DNA of 64,000 bases. Origin: a virus. Of the stretch, positions 8,601 through 63,994 are shown in pieces. The translations under genes were made by a program, and so were the position numbers. The stretch lies in IMG/VR virus record IMGVR_UViG_3300044956_001213, positions 6,118-70,117 of that record; one strand, 5' to 3'. The notes under the pieces were generated by a model. That model was not told the DNA's origin, made no database searches, and worked only from the letters and a program-made list of their open reading frames with translations. Position 1 is the stretch's first letter; each line of letters starts with the position of its first letter.

Positions 8601-8825
8601 ATCTTTCTTATTAATTTTTGTATTGTTTTTAATTTCATACCAGTTATTAATGTAGGATTGATATCTTACAAGAAAATCATTAGCGTTTGTATATAGGGTA
8701 TTATTATATTTTAACCATTCCTGAAAAGTCAAAGGCTCAGCAGCGTCAATAGGTGAGTCTGGTGGATTTAATGAGGTGATAGACAGTTCTAAGCGTTCAT
8801 CTATATATCTGTTGGTGCCTAACAT
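5673..8825 (-). CDS. Large structural protein, probable baseplate wedge component
   Basis: 1050 aa; adjacent to gp6; YNLKGSNLGIEKLI resembles the P2 gpI/gp7-type wedge motif; late promoter at 8831-8836. Confidence 0.5.
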   Translation of the reverse strand: MLGTNRYIDERLELSITSLNPPDSPIDAAEPLTFQEWLKYNNTLYTNANDFLVRYQSYINNWYEIKNNTKINKKDKIKELYTNLINEIVLNFTSTDERRFLKNIDINNNRDLAVAVPFFSQKIKEICLYYSTLRDDVATANLRYNLKGSNLGIEKLIYNEISKSLETGDLTDLIKTLNLDLAKVRDNTTIDVEDLYDTYAGYLDISPNVPVSAYNVSGDREKYFSLNVFEIDKDVFLNFNSTIVDAITSYPFFLIELGTNNFTITPQVDATQLNFLKDSDFINTVNTGAESNLNLNVLKSQIQKFIGTDFYFLSTGSTKTNYVSGVLFTAENEFANYLNKRYPSIASIPSVDFTKTSKQIGLFFKPDKIGFCNFNNFGQTFKTNLNKLSANNIYIFPNPYKFGNITGFTKETFHTPLDFFEYNYLNKIDFSNQYRFGDPDTSSYYQIFRGYQSRDQSLNTSVQGVTRYTDPQDFFNGEFKSFWANRDVFSYESNIFPIDNRIDKLLSINKTVVQYKNDIYGNEFSLYKDVHPEKIPVNERPKQENVIFIYCKSIDGHLFKDPVSGFNFDYSEENAEKGFSGIILKTVDNIPPGTGFYTQGPDYLTPSPLSASQYTEGIPYFAITGAEVPLQSYRFQPETYCPDRVEIKFVCGSRDGVTFTSPGSAGPRLLPDFPSDLPGFSEFSNVYYAELLDGGATPLEEDYVPNIINPGIFTFEPPVSALVDIDGSVFLANSAQPCGTDLEFVVRYVEESNYLDYRIPLRKTTVINGVTGLSTKKSLYETKYVDYGDLYYRNSNSSIILPVSAALSGMFVKYDNKIVNEIYNNLINFDVYYDTIQFETENYILFDKIKFDYKTNIINNTTKNDTFVKRGENKELEKISTAWYSEIDNVVFFCKTVLYPTLSSTNFKAIYPEIYSFNVGTVELLKLFPTIKSKNLTFNDVKMFSLSGTGLDFNIVEIDKPLFSYDDETQLYCITYLGKDLSNIFYIFKIFFKYVNGIITNIFNTMFKMQTNTETLNLLTTSSQLSNYSTFFQLNSSAGNILNGAFILGS

Positions 8826-16682: not shown

Positions 16683-16735
16683 ACTCATATTATAGCATAT
16701 ATTTGTATAAATCAATACTATTATTAAATATTGTT

Positions 16736-17212
16736 ATGAGTGAAGAGCTAAACGAGATGGTAGGTGATTTGCTAGAACAACTACAAGATGCTAACAAAAA
16801 AGCGGAAGAAATAAAAAAAGAAACTAACCCATTAACTAAAGAAAATATGGAAAAGTTTGTAGTTGAAAAAGCTGGAAGATTGGTAGAGGAAAGTTTAGAC
16901 GTAGTTTCTAACGTAAAAGAATATATTTCTAGTGCTCCTGAAAGTAAGGATGTAGGATCTTTAGCTGAATTAATTGCAGCTACATCTACGGCAATAGAGA
17001 CTTTAAATAAAATTATAGTTACTGATAAGAAAAATGAAACTATTATTAAAGCTAAGGAGATGGATATAGCCTCTAGAAAAGAGTTAAAAAAAGCTGATAA
17101 TACTACTAAACTTTTAACCACACGAGAACAAATTTTCAAGATGTTAATAGATAGTGCAAATCAGAGTGCAAAGATAATTGACGCAGAAATAATCGAAGAT
17201 AAGAATAATTAA
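16736..17212 (+). CDS. Helical late protein, possible terminase small subunit
   Basis: TAAATA-N5-ATG at 16725-16738; size and helical pattern are compatible with gp16, but there is no diagnostic motif. Confidence 0.35.
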   Translation: MSEELNEMVGDLLEQLQDANKKAEEIKKETNPLTKENMEKFVVEKAGRLVEESLDVVSNVKEYISSAPESKDVGSLAELIAATSTAIETLNKIIVTDKKNETIIKAKEMDIASRKELKKADNTTKLLTTREQIFKMLIDSANQSAKIIDAEIIEDKNN

Positions 17213-37887: not shown

Positions 37888-38172
37888 CTAATTTAAAGAT
37901 GTGTTTTTATTGTATTGCGCTCTACACACATCGTATACATTTAAAGGCATTTTATCTGCAATATCAATAATTCTTTCGGTTAACCCAAACTCAAATTTCT
38001 TTATAGGTACTTCCCTTATTTTCATTTCAGGTAAAGATAGAAAGTAATACGTTTTTTCCTTAGTTTCCATATAAACGAACAGTTCTCCTAAATAAACACC
38101 CCTAGTAATCGCATAAACATACTTTTTCTTTGGGTGTTTTATAAAATTAAAAATCATAATACTTTTATACAA
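37888..38172 (-). CDS. Hypothetical protein
   Basis: ORF in an operon with the rhamnose synthase. Confidence 0.5.
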   Translation of the reverse strand: MYKSIMIFNFIKHPKKKYVYAITRGVYLGELFVYMETKEKTYYFLSLPEMKIREVPIKKFEFGLTERIIDIADKMPLNVYDVCRAQYNKNTSLN

Positions 38173-38993
38173 TCTTCTACAGATTTAAAAGATCCTGGTA
38201 ATTCTAGGCCCATAGTTTTAATTTTATTGGTAGATAAAACACAATTAGATCTACCTGCAATAATATTTAAATCTGAAATATCTACAAAATTCCAATTAGG
38301 ATTGACTTTGTTGTGTTTCTTGAAAATATCAACAACCTCTTTTGCATCCATAGGCCCGGGGTTGACAACATTAAAAATACCTGGTGAATAAAATTCTGTA
38401 ATAAATTTTTCTGTAAAAAGACAGAGATCATATACATTAGTAAAGCTGTTTTTAAAACTAATTAGATTGTCATATTTTAAAATTTTATAAAGATAATTTT
38501 TATTTTCTTTAGTATTAGTAAAAGGCATTCTTATTCTAAAAATAGCAGAATGGTTTTTATTAAAAATAGTTTCAAACGCATGTTTACATTTAGAATAAAA
38601 ACTTGACACGTTGCTGTAAAGTCCAAAATTGGGAATATCGATTTCTGAATATTCTGTATCATAACCTGAGTAAATACACCCGCTGGAAATATGAACACAT
38701 TTAATATTGTAGTCGCTACATACTTTATCAATAGTATTAGGAGCCACAACATTATAAAGCCAGCACAAGTCTTTGTTAAGCTCGCAAGCATCAACGTTTG
38801 GTACCCCGGTATAGCCTGAGCAATTTATAACAACATAAAAGTTATTATCTCTAATAAATTTTGCGAGTTTATAGTCACTTTTATAATCAATTATATCTTG
38901 ACTGGCAAAAAATACATTGTGATTTTTGTCGTTTAAAAAATTGTTTAGGTGGGTTCCAATAAAGCCGCGACCTAGTATTAAAATTTTATTCAC
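38154..38993 (-). CDS. NDP-4-keto-6-deoxyglucose 3,5-epimerase/4-reductase (RmlD/NRS-ER family, NDP-rhamnose synthesis)
   Basis: GRGFIG Rossmann motif, GYTGVPNVDACE, SSGCIY, FYSKCK (YxxxK) and RIRMP. Confidence 0.8.
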   Translation of the reverse strand: MNKILILGRGFIGTHLNNFLNDKNHNVFFASQDIIDYKSDYKLAKFIRDNNFYVVINCSGYTGVPNVDACELNKDLCWLYNVVAPNTIDKVCSDYNIKCVHISSGCIYSGYDTEYSEIDIPNFGLYSNVSSFYSKCKHAFETIFNKNHSAIFRIRMPFTNTKENKNYLYKILKYDNLISFKNSFTNVYDLCLFTEKFITEFYSPGIFNVVNPGPMDAKEVVDIFKKHNKVNPNWNFVDISDLNIIAGRSNCVLSTNKIKTMGLELPGSFKSVEDCIKVL

Positions 38994-41747: not shown

Positions 41748-42404
41748 TCAAGTATTATTTGTAATTTTTTTTAAGCCTAAATCTACAAGCTTAATTGCTT
41801 TCTTTGAATTATAAAGCCTAGTTCTAAATAGTTGAATATTATTATAAAGATCTTCGCCAATAATATATTTTACTACTTCTGTGTCTCTTGAGCGTAGGTT
41901 CCTTTCAAAATTTTTATAATTTAATAGAGGATATACACACACATTGTGTTCTCTTAAGTGTAAGATAAAGGAAAATTCATTATTAGTTTTATGATCTATA
42001 TAAAACAACGGATTAATACCTTGCTTCCTGCAAAACTGGTTAATAAAAACAATAGACTTCTTAATATTGTTTAATTGTTCGTCACTGTCGGGATCTAAAT
42101 TTTCCTGTCTTTTATTAAACAATGTATAGGCTTTGGTAGCTTTTAATGAAAGGAAAAATTCTAACGGAAAGTATTTTTCGTCTGTATAAAGTGCGAAAGG
42201 AGCGCGAAAGAAATCTTCAACTTTAATATGAGGAAATCTTTTTAAAAAAGAAGATATCTTCTTAATAGATACAAAGCTCTTATCATCAAGTTTTTCGAAA
42301 TCTTTTCTTATTTTAAAGGGTAACTTATTATTGCTTCGTGAAACTCTTAAATAAGTATTGTAAATAAATTTATCAAATTCGGTAATCAATTGTAATATTT
42401 CCAT
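41748..42404 (-). CDS. Hypothetical protein, possibly a gp59-like helicase loader
   Basis: 218 aa, basic/aromatic, directly upstream of gp32 as gene 59 is in T4; no firm motif. Confidence 0.3.
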   Translation of the reverse strand: MEILQLITEFDKFIYNTYLRVSRSNNKLPFKIRKDFEKLDDKSFVSIKKISSFLKRFPHIKVEDFFRAPFALYTDEKYFPLEFFLSLKATKAYTLFNKRQENLDPDSDEQLNNIKKSIVFINQFCRKQGINPLFYIDHKTNNEFSFILHLREHNVCVYPLLNYKNFERNLRSRDTEVVKYIIGEDLYNNIQLFRTRLYNSKKAIKLVDLGLKKITNNT

Positions 42405-42598
42405 TTATTTCTAAATAATTGTTTTTTAATTTTTTTTAAAGCGCTAGGCTTATAGTAACGTTTTTTTAGTCTAAGTTCATCCAAAACCCCTGACTTTAAA
42501 AATTCTCTGCTAAATTTAATATACATTTTATCAAAATATGCTTTATCAGTACATTTTTGTTTATTTAGCGTTACCGACGCGTTAATTATCTTGCCCAT
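42386..42598 (-). CDS. rpsU: Ribosomal protein bS21 homologue
   Basis: 70 aa, basic; FDKMYIKFSREFLKSGVLDELRLKKRYYKPS matches the bS21 consensus (alrrFkr...kaGvl.E.r.r..YeKPs). Confidence 0.75.
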   Translation of the reverse strand: MGKIINASVTLNKQKCTDKAYFDKMYIKFSREFLKSGVLDELRLKKRYYKPSALKKIKKQLFRNKWKYYN

Positions 42599-44275: not shown

Positions 44276-44959
44276 TCAATGAGACGAATATTCATTTAAA
44301 AATTTTTCTTGACTACTTACAAATTTTTCATCATTTATATTTAAAAGACCGGGTGAGTTGTGTGCAACCCATATAGGAACTACACCTAATTTAAGCATCT
44401 TGCTATTGGCATCTATACTGCTTGCAATATCATAGTGATGAAATTCATAATTTTCATTAAATTGCCATCCTGCATTTAGGATAGATTTTGTTTTTACACT
44501 AATAAAAAGACCATCAAGAATAGCCACCCTCGAGGGTGTTGGGCCAAAGCTTGTCATAGTTATTTGTCCTTTTGAATAAGGATGTGCAACAGCTCCTCTT
44601 AGATTACCGCTACCGAAACCACCGCACATTATATGCCATAAAGCAGGCTCTTTTATAGCAGGGTTAATTCCCCCAGCGAGACCAACTAAATCAAACCTCA
44701 AATGCCCGTCATGTAATTTGTCAACAACATTAAAGTCGTCTACATGTACATCATCATGAAGAAATACTATGTTATCATAATCAGTACCATATTCATTTAA
44801 AATTTTATTATAGTTATAGCTAAGTCCCTTGGTGTTATTACTGTTGTAATAAAGAGAGAAGTTTTTAGGAAATTTATTTAAAATCTTTTCTAAAGATTGA
44901 TGCGCTAAGGTATCCTTAGGGTTGTCTTTACGTGTGCAAAAATAAAATGCTGTTTTCAA
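44276..44959 (-). CDS. GT-A fold glycosyltransferase (GT2-like)
   Basis: GLSYNYN, VFLHDDV, VGLAG, ILDGLF and FHHYD; TTG start overlaps the amidotransferase stop. Confidence 0.75.
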   Translation of the reverse strand: MKTAFYFCTRKDNPKDTLAHQSLEKILNKFPKNFSLYYNSNNTKGLSYNYNKILNEYGTDYDNIVFLHDDVHVDDFNVVDKLHDGHLRFDLVGLAGGINPAIKEPALWHIMCGGFGSGNLRGAVAHPYSKGQITMTSFGPTPSRVAILDGLFISVKTKSILNAGWQFNENYEFHHYDIASSIDANSKMLKLGVVPIWVAHNSPGLLNINDEKFVSSQEKFLNEYSSH

Positions 44960-45636
44960 AGCGTAAAAAACGGTGAGTTGGGTTTAAATTGACCTACAGA
45001 AGTAAGTCCTTCTTTAGTTATTAAAAAAAGAACACCTTCCTCTAATGAAATGTACTCCTTCTCTTTAATAGATGAAAAATCATTTGTAATAAAATCTGCA
45101 TATAGCGTACTACCGGATCTCGCTAGATAGATATTAGTTGACTCCTGATTATATATCCAAAGCCCAAAAGTACCTTGCAGTTGTGAGAGAGCTTCACATA
45201 TAGCTTTTACTTCATCAGTTGTTTTCTTAAAACATTTATTTATTAATGGGGCAATAACTGATGAATCAACAACATTATACGATCTTTTATCTAATCTTTT
45301 CTTAAGCTCTTTATCGTTTGTAAGGACCCCATTATGCGCAACAATCCAGTTTTTGTATTGAAAGGGATGGCTTGTAGATGGAGAAAATTTTCTTTGTAAA
45401 GATGTAGGTGCTTGTGTATGTCCTAAAAAAATATTAAAATCGGTTATACTCTTTTTCTTTTTATCATATTCTATAACTAATTTATTAGTAAGAGTTACAA
45501 CACCGGGGCTCTTCAAGACCGCATGTACATGTGAGCCGACCAGCAACCCACCATAAGAGAAAGTACCCCTTTCCTTATTGCCTTTATAAAGCTTTACATA
45601 TGTTGTAAAATCTTTAGATCCAAATATACCGCAAAT
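44956..45636 (-). CDS. Class II (Ntn) glutamine amidotransferase with inferred ATT start
   Basis: (M)CGIFGS N-terminal nucleophile, ERG, GHTQAPT, SHPF, AHNGVLTN and DS. ATT at 45634-45636 directly precedes the Cys codon, 8 nt after AGGAGG. Confidence 0.85.
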   Translation of the reverse strand: MCGIFGSKDFTTYVKLYKGNKERGTFSYGGLLVGSHVHAVLKSPGVVTLTNKLVIEYDKKKKSITDFNIFLGHTQAPTSLQRKFSPSTSHPFQYKNWIVAHNGVLTNDKELKKRLDKRSYNVVDSSVIAPLINKCFKKTTDEVKAICEALSQLQGTFGLWIYNQESTNIYLARSGSTLYADFITNDFSSIKEKEYISLEEGVLFLITKEGLTSVGQFKPNSPFFTL

Positions 45637-45644
45637 AGTAATAA

Positions 45645-45683
45645 CCTCCTGATTTATTATATTTAAAAGAATAAATAATTCAA
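45645..45683 (-). promoter_or_regulatory. Promoter TTGAAT-N16-TATAAT plus Shine-Dalgarno AGGAGG for the amidotransferase
   Basis: -35 at 45678-45683, -10 at 45656-45661, SD at 45645-45650. Confidence 0.8.
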
Positions 45684-45684
45684 G

Positions 45685-46581
45685 ATGAATAAGGACTCGC
45701 AATTAATTTTCGAAGCATATCTAGAAAAAAAAGCTGCAATTTTAAAAGAAGCTCCTATTTATGGCGATTTAGACACTGGCTATACAGGTGATATAGAAAA
45801 AGCACCGGGCGATGGTTATGGTGTAGGTGCAGCTGCAAAAAGAGAAGGTAAGTCTAAGAAAGAAATAGCTGATAAACTTTTAAATGTTATTAAAACAAAA
45901 TTATTTAAACAAGTCAAAAATGTTGTAAACGGAAAAGAATATCAGTTATTTTACCCTGGCAGTAAAATGAAATTCAGATCAGATCTAGAGAAACTTATTA
46001 AAAATGAATTAAAAATAGGTGGTACACAGGCAAGATATACTGCTAGAATTGTAGATAATCTTTTAAATGTTCTAAGAGTCGATCCTGAAGGCGGAGTTGT
46101 TACTGAGCCTAGGCAGGTTGAAAAAGCTTTAGACGCCGGTGTTGAAGGTAAATCTACCGCAATAGAAGTACAGCCTTCAGCACCCGTCTCTACTGCAAAT
46201 AAATTTGTAAAAAATGAAAATGTTAGATTCATAAAAGAATGGCAGCCAATATTTATAGAGCTACCTGAAGAGATAGAAGTACAGAAAGGCGATTTGTATG
46301 ATTCACCTGAACTAAAAAATGAAGTTATAGAAGCAATAACGCGTGCTTATGACAAGAAGATGGCTTCAGATAACGAAGTTGTTCAAGACTTTATCGATTC
46401 GTTAAAATATAAAAACAGTTATGTTCCTTATACAGAGAAACCTGAAGGTGAGGGCTCAGGCGAGGTTGAAACAGTAGAAGAGTATCCTGAGGATGATGAT
46501 GCAACTGCAGAGCTACGAAATATGGGAGCTATTCCTGGCCGCCGGGGATATGATCCAGGTGGGTTTAGTTATAGTGACTAA
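45685..46581 (+). CDS. Hypothetical late protein (capsid-targeting-like N-terminus)
   Basis: ATAAATA at 45671-45677; begins MNKDSQLIFEAYLE...ILKE. Confidence 0.6.
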   Translation: MNKDSQLIFEAYLEKKAAILKEAPIYGDLDTGYTGDIEKAPGDGYGVGAAAKREGKSKKEIADKLLNVIKTKLFKQVKNVVNGKEYQLFYPGSKMKFRSDLEKLIKNELKIGGTQARYTARIVDNLLNVLRVDPEGGVVTEPRQVEKALDAGVEGKSTAIEVQPSAPVSTANKFVKNENVRFIKEWQPIFIELPEEIEVQKGDLYDSPELKNEVIEAITRAYDKKMASDNEVVQDFIDSLKYKNSYVPYTEKPEGEGSGEVETVEEYPEDDDATAELRNMGAIPGRRGYDPGGFSYSD

Positions 46582-46583
46582 TT

Positions 46584-46805
46584 ATGGCTGATGTAACAAT
46601 TTCAGATTTAGGTACCGGTACCCCTGTAGGGGGTGATGTAGTTCCATATTCAACTGGCACAAGAACAAATAAAGTTACAATTTCTAGTTTACCTGTTGCA
46701 TGGAGTTCAATCACAGGTAAACCTGCGGTAACTGTTAGCACACAAGCTGGTCCGCCTTCTAATACTGTCGGGAATAATGGCGATATTTACTATCAAGTTA
46801 GCTGA
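46584..46805 (+). CDS. Small fibre-like/adaptor protein
   Basis: MADVTISDL...GDVVP...TNKVT (fibre attachment-type N-terminus), WSSITGKP repeat unit and GNNGDIYYQ tip motif. Confidence 0.6.
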   Translation: MADVTISDLGTGTPVGGDVVPYSTGTRTNKVTISSLPVAWSSITGKPAVTVSTQAGPPSNTVGNNGDIYYQVS

Positions 46806-46827
46806 TAATAATTAAATAATTTAGTAT

Positions 46828-47745
46828 ATGTCTTTATATATTAAAAACGCTGGATCGTGGAAAAATATTAACAAGATATTTGTTAAAGATGCAAATTTAT
46901 GGAAGACTGTTAGTAAGGGGTGGATAAAGGATGGCGGAGTTTGGAAGCAATTTTTTAGTTCAGCTATTACAATCACAGGTACAAGATATAATATTAATTT
47001 AAGAAATGAATTTAATCAAGTTTATCCAGGTCAAACACCTACGGGTACTGTACAATTTATAGTAGATAATGCATTAATAGGAAGCTCGAGTACATCAAAT
47101 TACGCGTTGGTTACAGGTAATTGGCCAGGTGACGTAACATTAATTTTAACTATAAATTCTAATTCTATAATAGCTGGAGCGGGGGGTGCAGGTGGAATAG
47201 CTCAAGTCAGCAGCACAACGTGGAACGGCTATGCTGGACCCGGGAGATCAGGTGGGGCGGCAATTAATTTAAATTATAATTTAACTTTAAATAATTCTGG
47301 AATTGTAGGAGGAGGAGGCGGGGGGGGAGGAGGTGCTATGTTTACATTTACATATAACGGTGGATTTGCCATGTTTGCACTTGGCGGTGGAGGAGGGGGT
47401 GCAGGTATAAACGGTGGTGTAGGTACTACTACTAACTGTACAACTAATTGTAATGCTGGTGTCACAGGTAGTACACAAATTGGTGGAACGGGTGGAAGTT
47501 TTGCTTGGACTACTGGAGGTCTTTTTAGAGCTATTGGTGGTACTGGTGGTAATTTAGGTCAAGGTGGAACTGCAGGCACCCCTGCAAACGGATATGTGTA
47601 TCGAGGATCAAACTATTCAGGTAATATTGAACGAGTATATAATGTGGGGGCATCCGCATCAGGTGGTAGTGCGGGAGCAGCAATAGTAAGAGGGGGATTT
47701 ACATTAACAGGCACTACAGGTGATATAAGAGGTGCAATTACCTAA
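46828..47745 (+). CDS. Glycine-rich receptor-binding adhesin (T-even gp38-like)
   Basis: Trp-repeat N-terminus (IK..G.W x3); IAGAGGAGG...GGAAI...LNNSGIVGGGGGGGG polyglycine motifs separated by variable loops. Confidence 0.7.
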   Translation: MSLYIKNAGSWKNINKIFVKDANLWKTVSKGWIKDGGVWKQFFSSAITITGTRYNINLRNEFNQVYPGQTPTGTVQFIVDNALIGSSSTSNYALVTGNWPGDVTLILTINSNSIIAGAGGAGGIAQVSSTTWNGYAGPGRSGGAAINLNYNLTLNNSGIVGGGGGGGGGAMFTFTYNGGFAMFALGGGGGGAGINGGVGTTTNCTTNCNAGVTGSTQIGGTGGSFAWTTGGLFRAIGGTGGNLGQGGTAGTPANGYVYRGSNYSGNIERVYNVGASASGGSAGAAIVRGGFTLTGTTGDIRGAIT

Positions 47746-48478
47746 TTACTTCACACTTATATTTTTCCCAAGGTATTGAGATTTTATAAGGTAATGGGTC
47801 TATATATCCTGCATCCAAAAAGCCTTTTATTCTCAAAGAACATGCAGTGCATTCACCGCATGCTTGTTCTTGACCTTCATAGCAAGTCCAAGTGTTACTA
47901 AAATTTACACCAAGCTTTATACCGATTTTTATAATTTCTTCTTTAGATTTGTCAATTAAAGGTGCCTGTACTGTAATTCTGTTTCTCCGGTTGAGAGCTG
48001 AAACTTTATTAATTTGCTCGAGAAATTCTTCACTACCATCCCAAAACCCTGCAACGCTATCAGCTTGTGCAGCTCCATGAAAAACAGTGCTAGCTCCTGC
48101 ATTCTCCGCTATTGCCAGGGATATACTAAGAAGCATTAAGTTTCTATAAGGAACATAGTTTACCGTCTGAGGATCACCCATTACATCCTTGGCCTTAGCT
48201 ATGGCAATCTTGTTATTGAGAAGTGAAGATATTTGACAGACATCCTTAAAAAACGGTAAATCTATACGCCGATATTCAACAGGCATATCAAGCGATTCAA
48301 TCTGGAGAGCAGCACAGTTTAGTTCCTTGTCCTTATGCTTTTGTCCATAATTATAGCTAATAGCTACTATTTCATCATAACGACTAGCCGCTAAATGTAG
48401 CAGCACAGTACTGTCCATTCCCCCGGAAACGGGGACTACAGCTTTACTCGACGGGTTCTTCTTCGCCTTGCGCTTCAT
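47738..48478 (-). CDS. queC: QueC-family ATPase (7-cyano-7-deazaguanine synthase-like)
   Basis: SGGMDS, YGQKH..E, VPYRN, APL and TWTCY...CGECTAC..R. Confidence 0.9.
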   Translation of the reverse strand: MKRKAKKNPSSKAVVPVSGGMDSTVLLHLAASRYDEIVAISYNYGQKHKDKELNCAALQIESLDMPVEYRRIDLPFFKDVCQISSLLNNKIAIAKAKDVMGDPQTVNYVPYRNLMLLSISLAIAENAGASTVFHGAAQADSVAGFWDGSEEFLEQINKVSALNRRNRITVQAPLIDKSKEEIIKIGIKLGVNFSNTWTCYEGQEQACGECTACSLRIKGFLDAGYIDPLPYKISIPWEKYKCEVIR

Positions 48479-49562
48479 TTACGTTATATTTGTATTCTTC
48501 AGCCAAGCGCTTGTCGAGTTCAGGAATAATGAATTCCTCGTAAAAAGCGGGGTCTTTTGCAAAAGTCTTTGCATAACCGAGTTTATCTCCCTTTTTATAC
48601 TTACCACTTGTTACACCAACAGTATACGTTGCGCCGTTTTGTTCAACGATGCCTCTTACTGCTGCCATACCGAGCAAACCGCTATACTTGTTGAGACCAG
48701 TCTTAAAAGAAAGATACATTTCTGTCTCTAAAAACGGAGGAAGAAAGCGATTCTTTACAGTTAATGCTCGAAGGGTTGTACCACTATATTTGTTTGCTTC
48801 AGCGAGTTTTTTGTCATCAGTATCCATTGAATCACCTTCGCCTTCCTTCTCATGGCGCTTGGCAAGCTGTACAAGAATACTAGCCATATACACCGGACCT
48901 GAGCCACCAGCCTGATTCTTTACAAGACTAGGAAACATTGCAGACGGATCATCGTATGTGTGGTTTGTAAACAGAATCGTCACACCGGCCTTAGCTGCCT
49001 TAAAAGTTAAAGTACGAAACATACTCTTTAAAGACTTTGCACGGAGTCCCATATCTGAGGCGGATTTATCTTTAGCAACATCATCTAACTCTTTTTGCGA
49101 AGCTAGATTACCAAGACTATCAATACTAATAATAAACCTACCTTTTGCATCATTCTCTATAATACTATCAAGTAAAGCGCTAACTTGATTTCGACACTGA
49201 TCAATAGTATCTACTGGTACATATTTAGTATTTTTTGAATCTAACCCAACACCTTTAGTACTATTTTCATCAATAGCAATTTCTGTATCAAATATGACCG
49301 GAGTAAGGCCTTTCTTTTGAGCAGTGGCAAGAATTTTATTAACAATAAATGTTTTGCCAGTCTGGCTAGGCCCAGAAAACCCAATTATTCTTCCTTTAGG
49401 AACGCCACCAGCCCTACAACTACCGCCAAGTATAGCGTTAAGAGCGTAACATCCAGTATCAAACCACTCATCAACTTTACTAAGTGCATTTTCGTTTAAA
49501 AAAGAAGCTTCAGAATTTAGTTTATCTAGTGATGCAAATATCTTATTAAGATCTTTACTCAT
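48444..49562 (-). CDS. uvsX: RecA-like recombinase
   Basis: DTGCYALNAIL, GPSQTGKT, FDTE, IDSLGNL, NHTY and GGSG. Confidence 0.92.
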   Translation of the reverse strand: MSKDLNKIFASLDKLNSEASFLNENALSKVDEWFDTGCYALNAILGGSCRAGGVPKGRIIGFSGPSQTGKTFIVNKILATAQKKGLTPVIFDTEIAIDENSTKGVGLDSKNTKYVPVDTIDQCRNQVSALLDSIIENDAKGRFIISIDSLGNLASQKELDDVAKDKSASDMGLRAKSLKSMFRTLTFKAAKAGVTILFTNHTYDDPSAMFPSLVKNQAGGSGPVYMASILVQLAKRHEKEGEGDSMDTDDKKLAEANKYSGTTLRALTVKNRFLPPFLETEMYLSFKTGLNKYSGLLGMAAVRGIVEQNGATYTVGVTSGKYKKGDKLGYAKTFAKDPAFYEEFIIPELDKRLAEEYKYNVNEAQGEEEPVE

Positions 49563-49991: not shown

Positions 49992-52577
49992 TTATTCGTG
50001 TAATAATGCAAATAAATCGGTTTGAACTTGGCTACCGGGTGACTGAAGCTTCCAGCCTACCGCCTCATAAAACCTTTCAATAGAAGAAAAAATAATTTTT
50101 TTAAACATTAGCTCGTGATCAATTTCAAATATCTCTGCAAACTCTTTTGGATATGTATATTTGTAACCTATTGTTGATATACCAAACCGGTTTGGTTGCT
50201 TTGCATAAAAAAATCTTACTTTATCACCGGAAGATATCTTTTCATACTTTTTTCCTGTATTAAACCTATCTAAAAGTAAATTGTAAAAGTAAGCTGCTTT
50301 AACGTGAATAGGCATATGCTTAACAGTTTTAAATCCTTCACACTGTGCAGAATACTTTTCATATCCTTTTATACCCATTACAAAAGCTATATCTTCTGCT
50401 AAAAGATTTTTGAAAATGTCATATGTTTCGTTAAATATTTTGTTAGTCTGAGCTAAGTCTTGAGTCATTAGCATTGTTTCAATAATCTTCTTCACATACG
50501 GTTTGATAGGAGTTGGCATAGTGGTTCTTACAACCTCTACACCAGTATACTTAAACTTATCACAAGGTATGCCTTCTTCATCTAGCACATGTAAAACATA
50601 TCTTTTCTTCTGAAGAAAGAGTCCTACATCTGCTATAGTTTCTCTCTTAAAATTTAGCCTGCAATCTTGAGAGCCTAATGCTAATTGTCCCCACTTCATA
50701 ATATTTTCGTTTAAGTGGTCTTCTATATCTCGTACTTGTTTATAGTATTCAGATGTAATTCTTCCTTTACTATCAAACATCTTTAATCCTGTTTTCCTTA
50801 CAAGATATTTAATTGAAACATATGAGCTATCAGTATCATTATAGATAATGGGTGTATCGTTCTTTAAATCATCATCAGATAAATTTGCTTTGTTTTTAAT
50901 ATACTCTTCAAGTAGTCTATTTGATTCCTTAATAACAGCTTGCCCGGTTAGTGTAATTGATTCTGCTAGTTCGTCGTCACCTAGAGGGCTATGTTTGTTA
51001 CCAAAATAGCCGTAGATTGTATTAATTAAAATCTTTATAGTATGTTGAGTAATATTTAAATTTTCTATCTGAAGTTTAAGCTTTTGATAATCGCTTGTTG
51101 TTTTATCTAGTGTAATAAGTTTTCTTTTTGCTACAGCTAGCTGTTTTTTAATGGCAACGCGCTTTTTATAAAAATGATCTACGGTTTCAGGTATAATACC
51201 TTTCTCTTTTTGTGTAAAAAGTACTTTAGCCTTAGAAATGGCTATTTTTTCTTTTTCAATAAAATCTACGAAATGTTTATTAGAAAGTTTAAACGTTTGA
51301 CCATTTACGTGTTGTAATGTTATCTCTTTATCTGTCCTATCTACAATTACACCTACTTTTGTTTCGGGAGATAAGTTTAGCGTTATCATAACGTTAGGAT
51401 ACAGGCTATTAGCATCAAACGATACAACGTTTTCTTGAATCCCTTTCTTAGGATCACTAACATAAGCTCCAGCATTTTGTTCATCGCTTGTATGCGTTTT
51501 ATTAAAGGTAGGTATGCGCTGGTTTCTCATCCTAGCTCTAATTGCGCATAGTCCTGTAATAACAGACAATGATCCTAGCGCGCCTTCGAAAGTAGTTAAC
51601 CCCGCGTATGCTATTATTCTTAAAAGCTTCAAATATTGAAGCTTTTCTTCTAGTCTAACAAGAAGATTTACGTCCTGAATGTTATATTGTACAAATAATT
51701 CCCAGTTTTCATCAGCTAGACTGGTAAGATTTGTATCACCGTAATCAATCTTATTCTCACCTAATTCTGTCTCACCAATTGCATCTAGTTTGTATGATTC
51801 TCTTAGTGCAGGGCAAAAACGCTTATAAATATCTAGATAGTCAACACACGAAATACCTTCAATATGCCAATGCACTTGCTCTTTACCGAACTTACCTTTA
51901 AATACTATAGGTCTTATATAGCCAACCGGAGAAAGCTTCTTAACCTCATCTTCACCTAAAATTCTTGTTATTCTATTGATAATATAAGGGACATCAAAGA
52001 ATTCACTGTTCCATCCAGAAAGTATATCTGGGTAATCGGAGATAAAATAACTTATAAATTTTGAAAGTAATTCTTTTTCCGACTTACAGTGAATGTATGT
52101 TGAATGCTCTCTATTATTATAATATGTCTTCAGCCCCCACGTGATAAAGTGCTTTCTCAAAGTATCATAAACGGTAATAATGTTTATGGGATGTTGCGGA
52201 TCGTCAGGCTTAGGAAACTCATCTGGGCTATAAGTTTCAATGTCAATAAACAAAACTCTAATAGGGTGTTTTGAAAATTCTTCGTTTTCATACTCGTTCC
52301 AAAAACTGTCTATCAGAAATTGTTGCTGAATGTTTAAATTTTCAAATATTCTAATAATTTTATTATTTTTCAAATACCTTGAGCGTTCGGCTTGATTGCG
52401 AAACTTTTTCTTTTTGAGTTTTGTATTAAATATACTGGTAGTATCGGGTTTATTATTTGTTTCTAGATAAATGTAAGGCTCGAAAGTGGTATCTAAAGCA
52501 ACGCGTTTACCCTCACTATCCCAGGTAAAAAGACGCATAAGCTGGCTTTTTGGTAAATATGCAACATTTCTGTACAC
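49992..52577 (-). CDS. gp43: Family B DNA polymerase
   Basis: DIET, GWNSEFFDVPY, YNIQDV, SFDANSLYP, KILINTIYG, YNDTDS and KKRY. Confidence 0.96.
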   Translation of the reverse strand: MYRNVAYLPKSQLMRLFTWDSEGKRVALDTTFEPYIYLETNNKPDTTSIFNTKLKKKKFRNQAERSRYLKNNKIIRIFENLNIQQQFLIDSFWNEYENEEFSKHPIRVLFIDIETYSPDEFPKPDDPQHPINIITVYDTLRKHFITWGLKTYYNNREHSTYIHCKSEKELLSKFISYFISDYPDILSGWNSEFFDVPYIINRITRILGEDEVKKLSPVGYIRPIVFKGKFGKEQVHWHIEGISCVDYLDIYKRFCPALRESYKLDAIGETELGENKIDYGDTNLTSLADENWELFVQYNIQDVNLLVRLEEKLQYLKLLRIIAYAGLTTFEGALGSLSVITGLCAIRARMRNQRIPTFNKTHTSDEQNAGAYVSDPKKGIQENVVSFDANSLYPNVMITLNLSPETKVGVIVDRTDKEITLQHVNGQTFKLSNKHFVDFIEKEKIAISKAKVLFTQKEKGIIPETVDHFYKKRVAIKKQLAVAKRKLITLDKTTSDYQKLKLQIENLNITQHTIKILINTIYGYFGNKHSPLGDDELAESITLTGQAVIKESNRLLEEYIKNKANLSDDDLKNDTPIIYNDTDSSYVSIKYLVRKTGLKMFDSKGRITSEYYKQVRDIEDHLNENIMKWGQLALGSQDCRLNFKRETIADVGLFLQKKRYVLHVLDEEGIPCDKFKYTGVEVVRTTMPTPIKPYVKKIIETMLMTQDLAQTNKIFNETYDIFKNLLAEDIAFVMGIKGYEKYSAQCEGFKTVKHMPIHVKAAYFYNLLLDRFNTGKKYEKISSGDKVRFFYAKQPNRFGISTIGYKYTYPKEFAEIFEIDHELMFKKIIFSSIERFYEAVGWKLQSPGSQVQTDLFALLHE

Positions 52578-52611: not shown

Positions 52612-52791
52612 TTACAAATGTAAAACTATTTTAAATAGAACAATAGCAGAACAAATTGCTGCGATTAGGCTTGTAAATGTTCTGAGTAATTCAAGCTTAT
52701 GATTATGCTTATCGACCCATATTTCAACTAAATCCCTCAAGCATCCCTCCTCTTCAAGTCTTCTGGTTTCCTTCTTAGAAAGCTTTCTCAT
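52612..52791 (-). CDS. 59-aa protein with a C-terminal TM helix (not in the ORF track)
   Basis: MRKLSKKETRRLEEEGCLRDLVEIWVDKHNHKLELLRTFTSLIAAICSAIVLFKIVLHL*; ATGA overlap with the upstream GT stop; fills the gap exactly. Confidence 0.7.
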   Translation of the reverse strand: MRKLSKKETRRLEEEGCLRDLVEIWVDKHNHKLELLRTFTSLIAAICSAIVLFKIVLHL

Positions 52792-62130: not shown

Positions 62131-63341
62131 TGATAACGTTTAAGCAATTCCTGCTTGAAGGTGGTGTTGCTGGTCACATGGCACATCCTTTTGATCTACC
62201 TAATATTAATACTGGAAAAGACCTTATAAATTTTTTTAATAAAGCTGTAAATAGTTTATCTAAGAAACCCGCAGCAGTAAAAATTGACGGAATTAACGCT
62301 TCTATTAAGTTAATTACAAATAAGAGCGGTAAAAAAGAATTTGCTTTAGACAGGGGTTCAAATAAGCCAGAGGACGTAGAAGGCGTTACTATTGAAAACC
62401 TTGCAAGTAGATTTCCCCCGGGTCATGGTATGCTAGAGATAGGTAAAACTGTTATATCCATTTTTAACACTTCAATATCAAATATAGAAAAGGAATTAAA
62501 GGCGCTAAAAATGTTGGATAATCCTAATATTCTTTTTAATATGGAATATGTTAAAGGCACAATAAACGTTATTGGTTATGCAAATAATTTTCTTGTTATT
62601 CACGGGCTAAATGAAATAATACAGGTAAAAAGTCCCGTGAAAGGTAGTACTAGCAGAGCTTCAAGAGAAATATCTTTTAATAAAGATTCATTAAATAAAT
62701 TAATAGAAAAAATTAAACCTGTAGCAAAAAAACAAGGATTCGACGTCGAACACGAATTTACTGTAAATCTTAAAGAAAAAGTTAATTTTAATAATGCATT
62801 AAATTCAACCTTTAATGTAAATTATGATTCAAAGAATTCTGTTTCTAAGCTGCTTAAAGATTGGTTATCTAAAGCTAAAAATCCTAGAGCAGAAAAAATA
62901 AAATTAGCTTCTGGTAAAACTATAAGTGCTATGAGCTTAGAAAATTTTAAAAACATTTCTGCAGGGGTTCCCTTAGATCATTACCTTGGAGATAATAAAA
63001 AAGCTATAGAGCCTGCAATAAATGGGGCAGTTTTTTACCAAGCTACTATATTATTAGGAGATGCAATTAAAAACGCTGCTAACTCTATGCTCGGATCTCT
63101 TAATACACAGGAAGGTATTGTCATTCGTGACCCTTCTTTATCTAGTAATCCTGTAAAAATTACCGGTAATTTTATTACAGGTAAAGAAGCAAGTAGATTT
63201 AGAAAAACAGAAAATGAGGAAGGGTTAAATGGCTTTTTGTCAAATGTAAATAGAGTAAATAATTCTAATAACTATCAAACTAATCCACCTTTTGGTAAAG
63301 AAGGCGCAAAGCTGATGCAGACGCCGGGAGTACAGCTATGA
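62130..63341 (+). CDS. Ligase-like covalent nucleotidyltransferase (ATP-dependent RNA/DNA ligase superfamily)
   Basis: VKIDG (motif I KxDG), NMEY (III), QEGIVIRD (IV) and VKITG (V); N-terminus MITFKQFLLEGG..GHMAHP. Confidence 0.55.
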   Translation: MITFKQFLLEGGVAGHMAHPFDLPNINTGKDLINFFNKAVNSLSKKPAAVKIDGINASIKLITNKSGKKEFALDRGSNKPEDVEGVTIENLASRFPPGHGMLEIGKTVISIFNTSISNIEKELKALKMLDNPNILFNMEYVKGTINVIGYANNFLVIHGLNEIIQVKSPVKGSTSRASREISFNKDSLNKLIEKIKPVAKKQGFDVEHEFTVNLKEKVNFNNALNSTFNVNYDSKNSVSKLLKDWLSKAKNPRAEKIKLASGKTISAMSLENFKNISAGVPLDHYLGDNKKAIEPAINGAVFYQATILLGDAIKNAANSMLGSLNTQEGIVIRDPSLSSNPVKITGNFITGKEASRFRKTENEEGLNGFLSNVNRVNNSNNYQTNPPFGKEGAKLMQTPGVQL

Positions 63342-63994
63342 GATTTGACGATTTAGTTAATGAAATCTTAATGCCACAGAAAAACAACCTAATAGTTATT
63401 TTTCCTGGTAGATTTCAGCCATTTCATACAGGGCATAAAAAACTATATGATCTTGCTAAAAAGAAATTTCCTGGAGCTGATTTCTTTGTAGCTACATCTG
63501 ATATTCCGCGAAAAGGTTTAGATAAAGATCCGAGCCGATATCCATTTAATTTTGATGAAAAAAAAGCTATTATTATAGCAGCAGATGTTCCGGAAAATGA
63601 AATTGTTCAAGTTGCACAACCGTACAAGCCTATAGAAATTTTAAAAAATTATGATTCAAATGTAGCTAAAGTTATCTACATATTAGGAGAAAAAGACATG
63701 AAAGATGATCCAAGGTTTTCATTTAAATTTAAAAAAGATGGTACTGCTTCTTATTTTCAGCCTTTTGTTGATTTGACTCAAATGAAACCTTTTAAAGAAC
63801 AAGGTGGTCATGGGTATATATTTTCACCGGGAACTATACAATTTAATGTAAATGGTGAAAATATTACAAGTGCAACTGAATTAAGAAATTTATATAAAAA
63901 TAGCGATGAATCTGTAAGAAAAAATATTATAACTAGCGTGTTAGGTAAATTTGATAAAAATATTTATAGTTTGTTTAACAAAAAATTAGACTAA
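63338..63994 (+). CDS. HxGH nucleotidyltransferase (cytidylyltransferase/NMNAT-like)
   Basis: PGRFQPFHTGH, YPFNF.EK and SATELR. Confidence 0.8.
   Translation: MRFDDLVNEILMPQKNNLIVIFPGRFQPFHTGHKKLYDLAKKKFPGADFFVATSDIPRKGLDKDPSRYPFNFDEKKAIIIAADVPENEIVQVAQPYKPIEILKNYDSNVAKVIYILGEKDMKDDPRFSFKFKKDGTASYFQPFVDLTQMKPFKEQGGHGYIFSPGTIQFNVNGENITSATELRNLYKNSDESVRKNIITSVLGKFDKNIYSLFNKKLD

What the first reader, a model, noticed from the sequence alone, without database searches (positions are those of the whole stretch)
45631..45683. The only obvious SD-led gene starts at a non-canonical AUU codon: possible translational switch
Seen (minus strand): TTGAAT-N16-TATAAT-AAATC-AGGAGG-TTATTACT-ATT-TGC-GGT-ATA-TTT-GGA. 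The Ntn amidotransferase needs Cys at position 2, and the codon before Cys is ATT, optimally spaced (8 nt) from a perfect SD. The predicted transcript would begin right at the SD (leader of about 14 nt). The ORF caller's upstream start would bury the catalytic Cys and lies upstream of the promoter. Other promoter-proximal genes examined are leaderless and lack an SD. Known: AUU initiation (infC) is repressed by IF3 and acts as a sensor of initiation fidelity. Inference: GATase and the coupled GT are made only in a particular ribosome state (low IF3 or free anti-SD, perhaps set by the phage bS21), gating the modification pathway.
Basis: partly seen in the sequence, partly recalled or inferred. 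Interest (0 to 1): 0.85.

Follow-up and report, generated by a model that had tools for sequence, protein, structure and literature searches.

The report
Phage gene that starts at AUU
A lake-water phage enzyme gene really does begin at the rare start codon AUU behind a strong ribosome-binding site, and its relatives have switched several times between this arrangement and a normal AUG with no leader at all.

Summary
On the minus strand, TTGAAT-N16-TATAAT-N5-AGGAGG-N8-ATT-TGC precedes a class-II (Ntn) glutamine amidotransferase (GATase, 44956-45636) whose stop overlaps the start of a glycosyltransferase (GT). All 34 close IMG/VR relatives keep ATT plus AGGAGG. None has a canonical in-frame upstream start, and many have a stop 1-7 codons upstream; the window's TTG at 45702 is private. 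Codons 2-30 are under purifying selection (pN/pS 0.17). The window holds no other SD-led gene (0 of 68 heuristic ORFs reach -7 kcal/mol against -11.0 here), and 39 of 68 have a -10-like box 4-8 nt before the start (leaderless type). Among 89 distinct homologues, 53 of 53 ATT starts carry a strong SD, 31 of 35 ATG starts carry none (mostly leaderless type), and strong well-spaced SD+ATG does not occur. A tree needs at least 8 ATT/ATG switches. Ancestrally the gene directly followed QueC. IF3 sensitivity is plausible, since leaderless, AUU and SD-less re-initiation are all IF3-repressed in E. coli, but it is untested. The host is unknown and no RNA data exist.

The parts
45678..45683 (-). -35-like hexamer TTGAAT of the GATase promoter (it overlaps the 7-nt spacer between the divergent gene's TAAATA box and its ATG)
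   Evidence: TTGAAT or TTGAAA, 16 nt, then TATAAT in 25 of 25 distinct upstream regions of the close clade. Promoter function is inferred, not mapped.
45656..45661 (-). -10 hexamer TATAAT
   Evidence: It lies 5-6 nt before the first G of GGAGG, the same spacing that other genes show between their -10 box and start codon. The predicted transcript therefore begins at the SD.
45644..45650 (-). Shine-Dalgarno AGGAGGT
   Evidence: Anti-SD duplex -11.0 kcal/mol. Conserved in 34 of 34 IMG/VR relatives, 8-10 nt before ATT, and in 53 of 53 distinct ATT-start homologues.
45634..45636 (-). Initiation codon ATT (AUU)
   Evidence: No canonical in-frame start upstream in any of 34 IMG/VR relatives. An in-frame stop lies 2-7 codons upstream in 8 of the first 15 examined.
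45631..45633 (-). Cys codon TGC, the N-terminal nucleophile after Met removal
   Evidence: C2 is invariant in alignments A1 and A3. The model has an Ntn glutaminase fold.
44956..45636 (-). Stand-alone class-II (Ntn) glutamine amidotransferase domain, 226 aa including the initiator residue; stop TGA at 44956-44958
   Evidence: Pfam GATase_6 and GATase_7. PDB profile hits to GlmS, GFAT and PurF. Foldseek TM 0.65-0.73 to GlmS/GFAT glutaminase domains.
44276..44959 (-). Glycosyltransferase (Glyco_tranf_2_5); its TTG start at 44957-44959 overlaps the GATase stop (TTGA)
   Evidence: 27.5 bits, cut-off 27. The overlap is conserved in 15 of 15 relatives.
45700..45702 (-). TTG used by the ORF caller; not a real start
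   Evidence: None of the 34 IMG/VR relatives has any canonical in-frame upstream start. It lies upstream of the -35 hexamer.
45685..46581 (+). Divergent gene 'div298' of unknown function, with a TAAATA box (45672-45677) 7 nt before its ATG. It is the opposite-strand gene that separates QueC from the GATase.
   Evidence: no family. Present between QueC and GATase in 12 of 12 clade loci. The Atlas search gave nothing usable.
47738..48478 (-). QueC (7-cyano-7-deazaguanine synthase family), the ancestral upstream neighbour of the GATase
   Evidence: PF06508 at 191.6 bits. In outgroups QueC ends 2-3 nt before the GATase ATG.
42386..42598 (-). Phage bS21 gene, downstream in the same gene array; shown here not to be required for SD+ATT
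   Evidence: PF01165 at 26.3 bits, phrog_21469. Present in 5 of 5 long clade contigs. Absent from G011, which has SD+ATT.
45614..45634 (-). Out-of-frame (+2) TTG mini-ORF of 6 codons created by ATT-TGY, ending in TAA
   Evidence: Read. The T that makes the TAA is present in 22 of 23 distinct sequences. Significance unknown.

Best explanation
The GATase gene is translated from AUU (ATT 45636-45634) by SD-directed 30S initiation. fMet is then removed to expose the catalytic Cys. Ribosomes terminating at the GATase stop re-initiate on the overlapping GT start, so both proteins depend on the AUU event. The predicted transcript starts at or within a base or two of the SD, giving a leader of about 14-16 nt. 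This arrangement is derived. Ancestrally the gene followed QueC directly and began with ATG. After an opposite-strand gene was inserted between them, the GATase was served by its own sigma-70-type promoter as a leaderless-type AUG gene. In several lineages a short insertion, or a swapped upstream module, then added an SD, each time together with AUG changing to AUU. Shown here: the real start, its conservation, the coupling, the exclusivity of SD with ATT, and the repeated switching. Inferred: the transcript start, and that SD+AUU sets a low or conditional output. My split for the purpose is about 45% a plain throttle (SD+AUG would make too much) and about 35-40% retention of IF3-sensitive initiation, the regime of the phage's leaderless genes. 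A role for bS21 gets 10% or less.
For: Sequence as described. ATT plus SD in 34 of 34 close IMG/VR relatives with N-termini, and ATG without SD in 6 of 6 distant ones. No canonical in-frame upstream start in any of the 34; among the first 15 examined, 8 have a stop 2-7 codons upstream, and in L002 and L004 only one codon lies between that stop and the ATT. Codons 2-30 have pN/pS 0.166 at pS 0.57, and the first downstream canonical start varies between codon 13 and codon 134, so a downstream start is excluded. Cys2, HNG and Asp are conserved and the fold is the GlmS-type glutaminase domain. Stop/start overlap with GT in 15 of 15. SD census. Leaderless-type boxes. The metagenome scan of 80 loci gave 48 ATT, all with an SD of 5 nt or more; 27 ATG without SD, of which 25 have a -10-like box 4-8 nt before ATG; 4 ATG with weak or distant SD-like motifs; and 1 aberrant locus. 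Among 89 distinct proteins the counts are 53 ATT_SD, 31 ATG_noSD, 4 ATG_SD and 1 ATA. The tree needs at least 8 ATT/ATG changes, 7 of them forced by well-supported branches, and the window's clade has one origin, sister to leaderless ATG lineages. L210 and L199 (ATG) and L203 and L206 (ATT) share the same promoter and differ by an insertion of about 13 nt that puts GGAGG where transcription should start. QueC is directly upstream in outgroups, and div298 is inserted in 12 of 12 clade loci. Literature, passages read: AUU starts are rare and IF3-repressed (PMC5499595); excess IF3 also inhibits leaderless mRNAs and SD-less re-initiation (PMC9031893, PMC2268962).
Against: There is no direct evidence of translation or of the transcript's 5' end. 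No RNA run holds the locus and the host is unknown. The independent-pairs test is underpowered: 6 pairs, with the SD changing the same way in 3-4, the opposite way in 0, and no difference in 2-3; p = 0.125. The tree is a quick search with 26 of 86 inner branches weakly supported. Upstream modules clearly recombine (L205 against L210), so 'changes' may be exchanges rather than mutations. My SD classes come from a simple regular expression. If leaderless translation is the efficient default in this host, SD+AUU need not equal it in output, so the equivalence argument is not compelling. AUU strength in this host is unknown. The gene-start list is heuristic (longest ORFs, first start).
Confidence: 0.85

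Rival explanations
1. IF3- and bS21-gated switch: the pair GATase+GT is made only in a particular ribosome state, with low IF3 or a free anti-SD set by the phage bS21.
For: AUU initiation is IF3-repressed in E. coli (PMC5499595). In F. johnsoniae only rpsU has an obvious SD, and bS21-less ribosomes translate it preferentially (PMC9976891, passages read). bS21 lies about 3 kb downstream in 5 of 5 long clade contigs. All three IF3-sensitive initiation modes occur in this module.
Against: G011 has SD+ATT, is collinear with the window, and has no bS21 in the slot or anywhere in 79 kb; positive controls worked. The phage bS21 genes have no SD. The phage encodes no IF3 or IF1 in 5 of 5 contigs. Full sigma-70-type promoters sit at gene starts, and TAnnTTTG is not associated with starts, which argues against a Bacteroidota host.
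Confidence: 0.12
2. Translation starts at the upstream TTG (45702) and the N-terminal 22 residues are removed autocatalytically, as a propeptide is in some Ntn amidotransferases (B. subtilis PurF; recalled, not looked up).
For: The frame is open from TTG 45702 in the window.
Against: None of the 34 IMG/VR relatives has a canonical in-frame upstream start, and many have stops 1-7 codons upstream. The TTG lies upstream of the conserved -35 hexamer and inside the divergent gene.
Confidence: 0.01
3. Sequencing error, pseudogene, or a truncated non-catalytic protein that starts at a downstream canonical codon.
For: One locus (L179, a 2.7-kb contig) has lost the Cys frame at the start, so defective copies or assembly errors do exist.
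Against: ATT is found in 53 distinct homologues and the reads agree. pN/pS is 0.166 over codons 2-30. Downstream canonical starts are not conserved in position. The whole ORF is intact in the relatives.
Confidence: 0.02
4. The GATase is reached mainly by coupling to a short upstream or overlapping ORF rather than by free 30S binding at the SD. Candidates are the leaderless-type 11-codon uORF that runs through the SD and stops 4 nt before ATT in the L109/L205 lineage, and the +2-frame TTG mini-ORF in the window's clade.
For: The uORF upstream sequence recurs in 9 loci (L109, L194-196, L201, L202, L204, L205, L208). The mini-ORF's TAA is kept in 22 of 23 distinct sequences.
Against: In the window's clade the predicted transcript starts at the SD, so no uORF is possible upstream. 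The mini-ORF is broken in L052 and L061. The T could simply reflect codon bias.
Confidence: 0.05

Closest known systems
infC (IF3 gene) and pcnB of E. coli: AUU-initiated genes
   Same: A near-cognate AUN start codon kept by selection behind a functional SD. The AUU is the target of IF3 discrimination (PMC5499595 and PMC7797042, passages read).
   Different: This is a phage metabolic gene, not a translation factor, so there is no autoregulatory loop, and no IF3 domain is found in the phage. Here AUU alternates evolutionarily with leaderless AUG; my literature searches returned no report of that for infC or pcnB.
rpsU of Flavobacterium johnsoniae: the only SD-led gene in an SD-less genome (PMC9976891)
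   Same: A single conspicuous SD in a genome whose other genes lack one. bS21 is present in the system.
   Different: rpsU starts at a canonical codon as far as I read. Its logic needs a ribosome that hides the anti-SD. Here the host is unknown, the promoters look sigma-70-type, and SD+ATT occurs without the phage bS21.
Leaderless mRNAs such as lambda cI
   Same: Sister lineages of this very gene, and most other genes of the phage, have a -10 box 4-8 nt before the start codon. Leaderless initiation is IF3-antagonised like AUU initiation (PMC9031893, PMC2268962).
   Different: The window's gene is the exception: it has a short leader that begins with the SD.
Gat-QueC fusion proteins of phages with 7-deazaguanine DNA (PMC6884629, search listing and abstract only)
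   Same: A class-II GATase works beside QueC. The two window proteins match the two halves of phrog_10428, and they are adjacent in outgroups.
   Different: The proteins are split, and in this clade separated by an opposite-strand gene. A GT is coupled to the GATase. No TGT/DpdA was found in 5 of 5 contigs.
sigR of Streptomyces: non-canonical GTC start repressed by IF3 (PMC5472188, abstract only)
   Same: A regulatory use of a non-canonical start codon outside infC.
   Different: Different codon, a cellular regulator, and no SD/leaderless alternation reported in the abstract.

Membership tests
Class-II (Ntn) glutamine amidotransferase | Cys as the first residue after the initiator Met | tested here: met
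   C2 is invariant in A1 (13 sequences) and A3 (10 sequences). Cys follows the start codon in 79 of 80 metagenome loci; L179 is the exception.
Class-II (Ntn) glutamine amidotransferase | Ntn glutaminase fold | tested here: met
   AF2 model with pLDDT 79.5 and pTM 0.82. Foldseek against 1xff gave E 9e-12 and TMq 0.65; GFAT up to 0.73; PurF and EgtC also match.
Class-II (Ntn) glutamine amidotransferase | Oxyanion Asn-Gly (HNG) and the conserved Asp | tested here: met
   In the profile alignment to GlmS, 'ahnG' aligns with 'vhnG' and 'vDssvia' with 'tDteviA'. H101, N102, G103 and D124 are invariant.
Class-II (Ntn) glutamine amidotransferase | Glutamine-binding Arg (Arg73 of GlmS and PurF; residue number recalled) | tested here: inconclusive
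   The N-terminal 80 residues were not aligned in the best PDB hits. By eye the clade has GHTQAPT where outgroup L018 has HSRGPT. No tool tested this.
Gat-QueC type amidotransferase of 7-deazaguanine pathways | GATase and QueC in one polypeptide | tested here: not met
   They are separate genes at 44956-45636 and 47738-48478, 2 kb apart. In outgroups they are adjacent but still separate.
Gat-QueC type amidotransferase of 7-deazaguanine pathways | Similarity of both halves to the fusion family | tested here: met
   For phrog_10428 (476 positions), the GATase matches positions 102-188 (E 3.4e-5) and QueC matches 254-460 (E 1.6e-27).
Gat-QueC type amidotransferase of 7-deazaguanine pathways | A DNA or tRNA guanine transglycosylase (DpdA/TGT) in the same genome | tested here: not met
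   PF01702 was found in 0 of 5 contigs of 70-158 kb. The contigs are 33-74% complete and divergent DpdA could be missed. QueD was found in 4 of 5.
infC-type IF3-sensed near-cognate start | Conserved AUN start codon behind an SD | tested here: met
   53 of 53 distinct ATT-start homologues have an SD, 7-10 nt upstream.
infC-type IF3-sensed near-cognate start | Output repressed by IF3 | not testable with these tools
   Needs reporters or cell-free translation with titrated IF3.
infC-type IF3-sensed near-cognate start | The product feeds back on IF3 (autoregulation) | tested here: not met
   The product is a GATase. IF3_C and IF1 families were found in 0 of 5 contigs each.
Bacteroidia rpsU-type SD sensing of bS21-less ribosomes | Host ribosome sequesters the anti-SD (Bacteroidota host) | tested here: inconclusive
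   The host is unknown. Five of 7 full TTGAnn-N16-18-TAWAAT sites sit at gene starts, and only 3 of 118 TAnnTTTG sites lie within 60 nt upstream of a start. This leans against Bacteroidota.
Bacteroidia rpsU-type SD sensing of bS21-less ribosomes | Association with bS21 | tested here: not met
   G011 has SD+ATT but no bS21 in 79 kb, and orf101 and orf218 abut where bS21 lies in the window.
Leaderless mRNA (other genes of the window and ATG sister lineages) | Transcript starts at or within a few nt of the start codon | tested here: inconclusive
   Only the promoter geometry was tested. A -10-like box lies 4-8 nt upstream in 39 of 68 ORFs against 14% of random positions, and in 25 of 27 ATG no-SD homologues. 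No transcript ends are available.

The most novel reading that the evidence does not exclude
In these phages leaderless-AUG and SD-plus-AUU are interchangeable solutions that both keep a gene inside an IF3-sensitive initiation regime, one dependent on the IF2 and fMet-tRNA supply. This is the same regime that governs the phage's many leaderless genes and its SD-less coupled genes. Whenever the GATase gene acquires an SD-bearing leader, selection converts AUG to AUU so that it does not escape that regime. This would be a natural, repeatedly evolved demonstration that start-codon weakness and leaderlessness are equivalent inputs to one translational control system exploited by a virus.
Probability: 0.3. 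Interest if true: 0.85.

Novelty: new variant of a known kind. Interest (0 to 1): 0.72.

Why it matters
Conserved AUU starts are textbook rarities: infC and pcnB in E. coli (PMC5499595). My full-text searches for an AUU or ATT start in phages found 5 and 4 papers, and none of their listings reported a phage gene with one. Here a phage gene keeps AUU across 53 distinct homologues. The same gene has moved at least 7-8 times between two non-standard initiation designs, while the standard design (a strong, well-spaced SD with AUG) was not seen. That gives translation researchers matched natural sequence pairs (for example L210 against L203) for testing how SD, start codon and leader length trade off, and whether IF3 links them. 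Practically, gene callers mis-start or truncate this family, since the window's call begins at a spurious TTG. The phage group also appears to run largely on leaderless-type gene starts, which matters for annotating uncultured T4-like lake phages.

Tried and rejected
Host identification failed. tblastn of the phage bS21 against cultured phages gave no match. The genome-contig scan with the bS21 alignment found no relative. All 80 bS21 homologues in the large protein database are metagenomic; one short contig is labelled 'MAG Proteobacteria bacterium', which I treat as no evidence. The nearest cultured phages for DNA polymerase and UvsX are cyanomyophages at about 30-34% identity. No RNA holder was listed for the locus, so nothing can be said about expression or transcript ends.

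RNA structure: the first 80 nt of the predicted mRNA fold no better than shuffles (z = -0.05), so masking by structure is rejected.

A second SD+ATT candidate in G004 (+54539) was rejected. The real gene starts at an internal ATG at codon 28 and matches window ORF 16703-17212.

The phage tRNA-Met genes of G004 do not look initiator-like by the recalled three-G:C rule, so there is no phage initiator tRNA in view.

div298 has no Pfam or PHROG family and no usable Atlas hit.

The pattern scan for SD+ATG found 6 loci. All are unrelated GATases; only L080 shows any similarity, at 29% identity. Of the 33 non-clade ATT-pattern hits, 32 are chance matches in short, long-internal or truncated ORFs.

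I first read G011's lack of bS21 as uninformative because I thought the contig ended in the GT gene. One search showed the locus is internal to the contig, and I corrected this.

My script printed the overlapping TTG ORF in the wrong frame. The frame given in this report (+2) is read, and the third-position counts stand.

Supplementary files of the papers were not opened. The host tables of PMC9723584 might bear on the host question.
Full report
WHAT IS THERE. The window is 64 kb of a 70-kb IMG/VR virus record with 31.6% G+C. It belongs to an uncultured T4-like myophage. It carries a gp43-type DNA polymerase, UvsX, gp32, a DnaB-like helicase, gp46/47-like proteins, a UvsW-like helicase and a T4-type large terminase. 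The nearest cultured phages are only about 30-34% identical. Runs that hold the locus are lake-water metagenomes.

TTGAAT (45683-45678) is followed by 16 nt, TATAAT (45661-45656), AAATC, AGGAGG (45650-45645), TTATTACT, ATT (45636-45634), TGC, GGT, ATA, TTT and GGA. The ORF from ATT encodes a 226-residue stand-alone class-II glutamine amidotransferase (GATase) domain. The evidence is Pfam GATase_6/7, a profile match to GlmS, GFAT and PurF with the HNG and Asp motifs aligned, and an AlphaFold model (pTM 0.82) whose best structural matches are GlmS/GFAT glutaminase domains (TM 0.65-0.73, E about 1e-11).

THE START CODON IS REAL. Two protein-pattern scans of IMG/VR gave 42 loci, 40 of which cover the N-terminus. 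All 34 at 62-75% identity have ATT-TGY preceded by AGGAGG, GGGAGG or AAGGAGG. All 6 at 33-41% identity have ATG-TGY and no SD. One of the patterns contained the N-terminal Ile and so was biased towards ATT. The other pattern, and all six patterns, were not.

No relative has an ATG, GTG or TTG in frame between the nearest upstream stop and the Cys codon. Among the first 15 examined, 8 have that stop 2-7 codons upstream, and in L002 and L004 only one codon lies between it and the ATT. The window's TTG at 45702 is therefore private and spurious. An independent DNA-pattern scan recovered the same 34 contigs, with SD present in 34 of 34 and a canonical upstream start in 0 of 34.

Codons 2-30 show pN/pS = 0.166 at pS = 0.57. 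The first downstream canonical codon varies between codon 13 and codon 134, so translation must begin at or before Cys2. Assemblies of three lake samples at about 50x depth, which may be the source, and a short contig from a fourth sample agree with the window base for base.

THE CONTEXT. The GATase stop overlaps the start of a Glyco_tranf_2_5 glycosyltransferase (GT): TTGA in the window, and NTGA or TAATG in 15 of 15 relatives. The GT therefore depends on GATase translation. The window has no other SD-led gene. SD-like pairing is in fact weaker at gene starts than at random positions.

Instead, 39 of 68 heuristic ORFs have a -10-like hexamer ending 4-8 nt before the start codon, against 14% of random positions. 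A TAAATA type resembles the T4 late-promoter box, which is my recollection rather than a tool result. A TATAAT type is also present, and both peak sharply at 5-6 nt. That geometry predicts leaderless or nearly leaderless mRNAs.

In the GATase the same 5-6 nt spacing separates TATAAT from the first G of GGAGG, in 25 of 25 distinct upstream regions. The predicted transcript therefore begins at the SD. The 5' region shows no significant RNA structure. In the 158-kb relative G004 only one other ORF is SD-led, a 60-aa ATG gene beside a tRNA-Met.

HOW IT AROSE. In the outgroups QueC ends 2-3 nt before the GATase ATG in L056, L059 and L060, and a GT follows. In 12 of 12 clade loci an opposite-strand gene of unknown function (div298) lies between QueC and the GATase.

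A metagenome scan with a broader alignment returned 80 loci at 44-75% identity. Forty-eight have ATT, always with an SD of at least 5 nt. Twenty-seven have ATG without SD; 25 of these have a -10-like box 4-8 nt before the ATG, and many share the same divergent-gene junction and the same TTGAAW...TATAAT promoter as the window. Four have ATG with weak or distant SD-like motifs, 10-13 nt from the ATG. One short contig has lost the Cys frame.

After merging with the IMG/VR loci and removing identical proteins, 89 sequences remain: 53 ATT_SD, 31 ATG_noSD, 4 ATG_SD and 1 ATA. A quick maximum-likelihood tree, built with the first column removed, needs at least 8 ATT/ATG changes; 7 are forced by well-supported branches, and the shuffled mean is 28. 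The window's clade (43 rows) is a single origin, sister to leaderless-type ATG lineages.

Near-identical proteins carry different leaders. L210 and L199 read TATAAT-ATTAATGAA-ATG. L203 and L206 read TATAAT-ATTAAT-GGAGG-TACAATATT-ATT. L205 has the same coding start behind an unrelated upstream module, with a long SD and a short uORF. The test on phylogenetically independent pairs goes the right way but is underpowered: 3-4 pairs agree, 0 disagree, 2-3 show no difference, p = 0.125.

WHAT IT MEANS. I regard the following as shown: AUU is the initiation codon, it depends on an SD, the GT is coupled to it, and SD+AUU and leaderless-type AUG have replaced each other repeatedly, while a strong well-spaced SD with AUG was not seen. 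Reversion from ATT to ATG is a single base change. Its absence in 53 distinct homologues, in a region where synonymous sites are more than half saturated, means ATG behind this SD is selected against.

The simplest reason is dosage. A richer reading comes from E. coli work: excess IF3 inhibits non-canonical starts, leaderless mRNAs and SD-less re-initiation alike (PMC2268962 and PMC9031893, passages read). All three modes occur in this module and its relatives, so the switch may preserve membership of one IF3-sensitive regime. Neither reading can be tested with the tools at hand.

THE bS21 IDEA. bS21 lies about 3 kb downstream in the window and in 5 of 5 long clade contigs. However, G011 has SD+ATT and is collinear with the window from GATase to gp32, and it has no bS21 in the slot or anywhere in 79 kb; positive controls worked. 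The phage bS21 genes lack an SD, and the phage encodes no IF3 or IF1. The Flavobacterium precedent (PMC9976891; PMC7797042) requires a host whose ribosome hides the anti-SD. Here full sigma-70-type promoters sit at gene starts, and the Bacteroidota -7 motif is not associated with starts. I therefore rate a bS21 role at 10% or less.

PATHWAY. The GATase and QueC match the two halves of phrog_10428, a fusion-type family. QueD is present in 4 of 5 contigs, but no TGT/DpdA in 5 of 5. A 7-deazaguanine-related amidotransfer is therefore plausible, but DNA modification is not shown.

LIMITS. There are no transcript or protein data, and the host is unknown. The gene list and the SD classes are heuristic. 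The tree is a quick search, and recombination of upstream modules is evident.

Noticed in passing
window, whole (examples: 49992-52577(-) GTG start, 48444-49562(-), 5673-8825(-)): Most genes have a -10-like box (TAAATA or TATAAT type) 5-6 nt before the start codon, and no SD. This includes genes with GTG and TTG starts. The phage seems to run largely on leaderless-type gene starts: 39 of 68 ORFs against 14% of random positions.
   Followed up: partly
window 45614-45634 (-): ATT-TGY creates an out-of-frame (+2) TTG, 9-11 nt from the SD, that opens a 6-codon ORF ending in TAA. The T that makes the TAA is kept in 22 of 23 distinct sequences and broken in L052 and L061. It could be a decoy start or merely codon bias.
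   Followed up: partly
L109 (GATase ATT at 1121-1119, minus strand), L194-196, L201, L202, L204, L205, L208: A second SD+ATT lineage has a longer leader. An 11-codon uORF starts a few nt after a TTGATA-N16-TATAAT promoter, runs through an extended SD (AGGAGAGGAGGG), and stops 4 nt before the ATT. This suggests termination-linked initiation.
   Followed up: partly
window 42386-42598 (-) and L230 (G011:46000-58000) 6634-7577: The bS21 gene sits between orf101 and orf218 in the window's clade. It is missing in G011, where those two genes abut, so bS21 looks like an insertion specific to part of this phage group.
   Followed up: yes
window 46584-47745 (+): A small ORF and a Gly-rich tail-fibre-like gene (phrog_11439; Pfam GP38 matched only below its cut-off, 17.9 of 25 bits) lie between div298 and QueC in the window. 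They are absent from G004 and from several relatives, so the QueC-GATase gap is a variable cassette site.
   Followed up: partly
window GATase residues 72-78 (GHTQAPT); L018: Where I recall an Arg that binds glutamine in GlmS and PurF, the ATT clade has Gln, while outgroup L018 has Arg (HSRGPT). The enzyme may have changed substrate. This rests on a recalled motif and on reading by eye, not on a tool.
   Followed up: no
L179 (2.7-kb metagenome contig), start region 896: One close relative reads ATA TTT GCA instead of ATT TGC GGC after the same SD, losing the Cys frame. It is either a defective copy or an assembly error.
   Followed up: no
G004 157453 (-), tRNAs at 6689, 7373, 14018, 157490: The 158-kb relative carries four tRNA genes (Glu, Thr and two Met-CAT that do not look initiator-like) and one more SD-led gene, a 60-aa ATG ORF next to a tRNA-Met in a higher-GC end module.
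   Followed up: partly
window 38154-38993 (-), 63338-63994 (+): An RmlD/epimerase-like gene and a cytidylyltransferase-like gene are present. Outgroup L057 has an epimerase/dehydratase right after its GATase. Sugar-nucleotide genes may belong with the GT.
   Followed up: no
window 52750 (-), inside ORF 52612-52791: There is an internal AGGAGG followed by TTG (a 42-codon frame), the only other strong anti-SD match near a possible start. I judged it to be chance.
   Followed up: no
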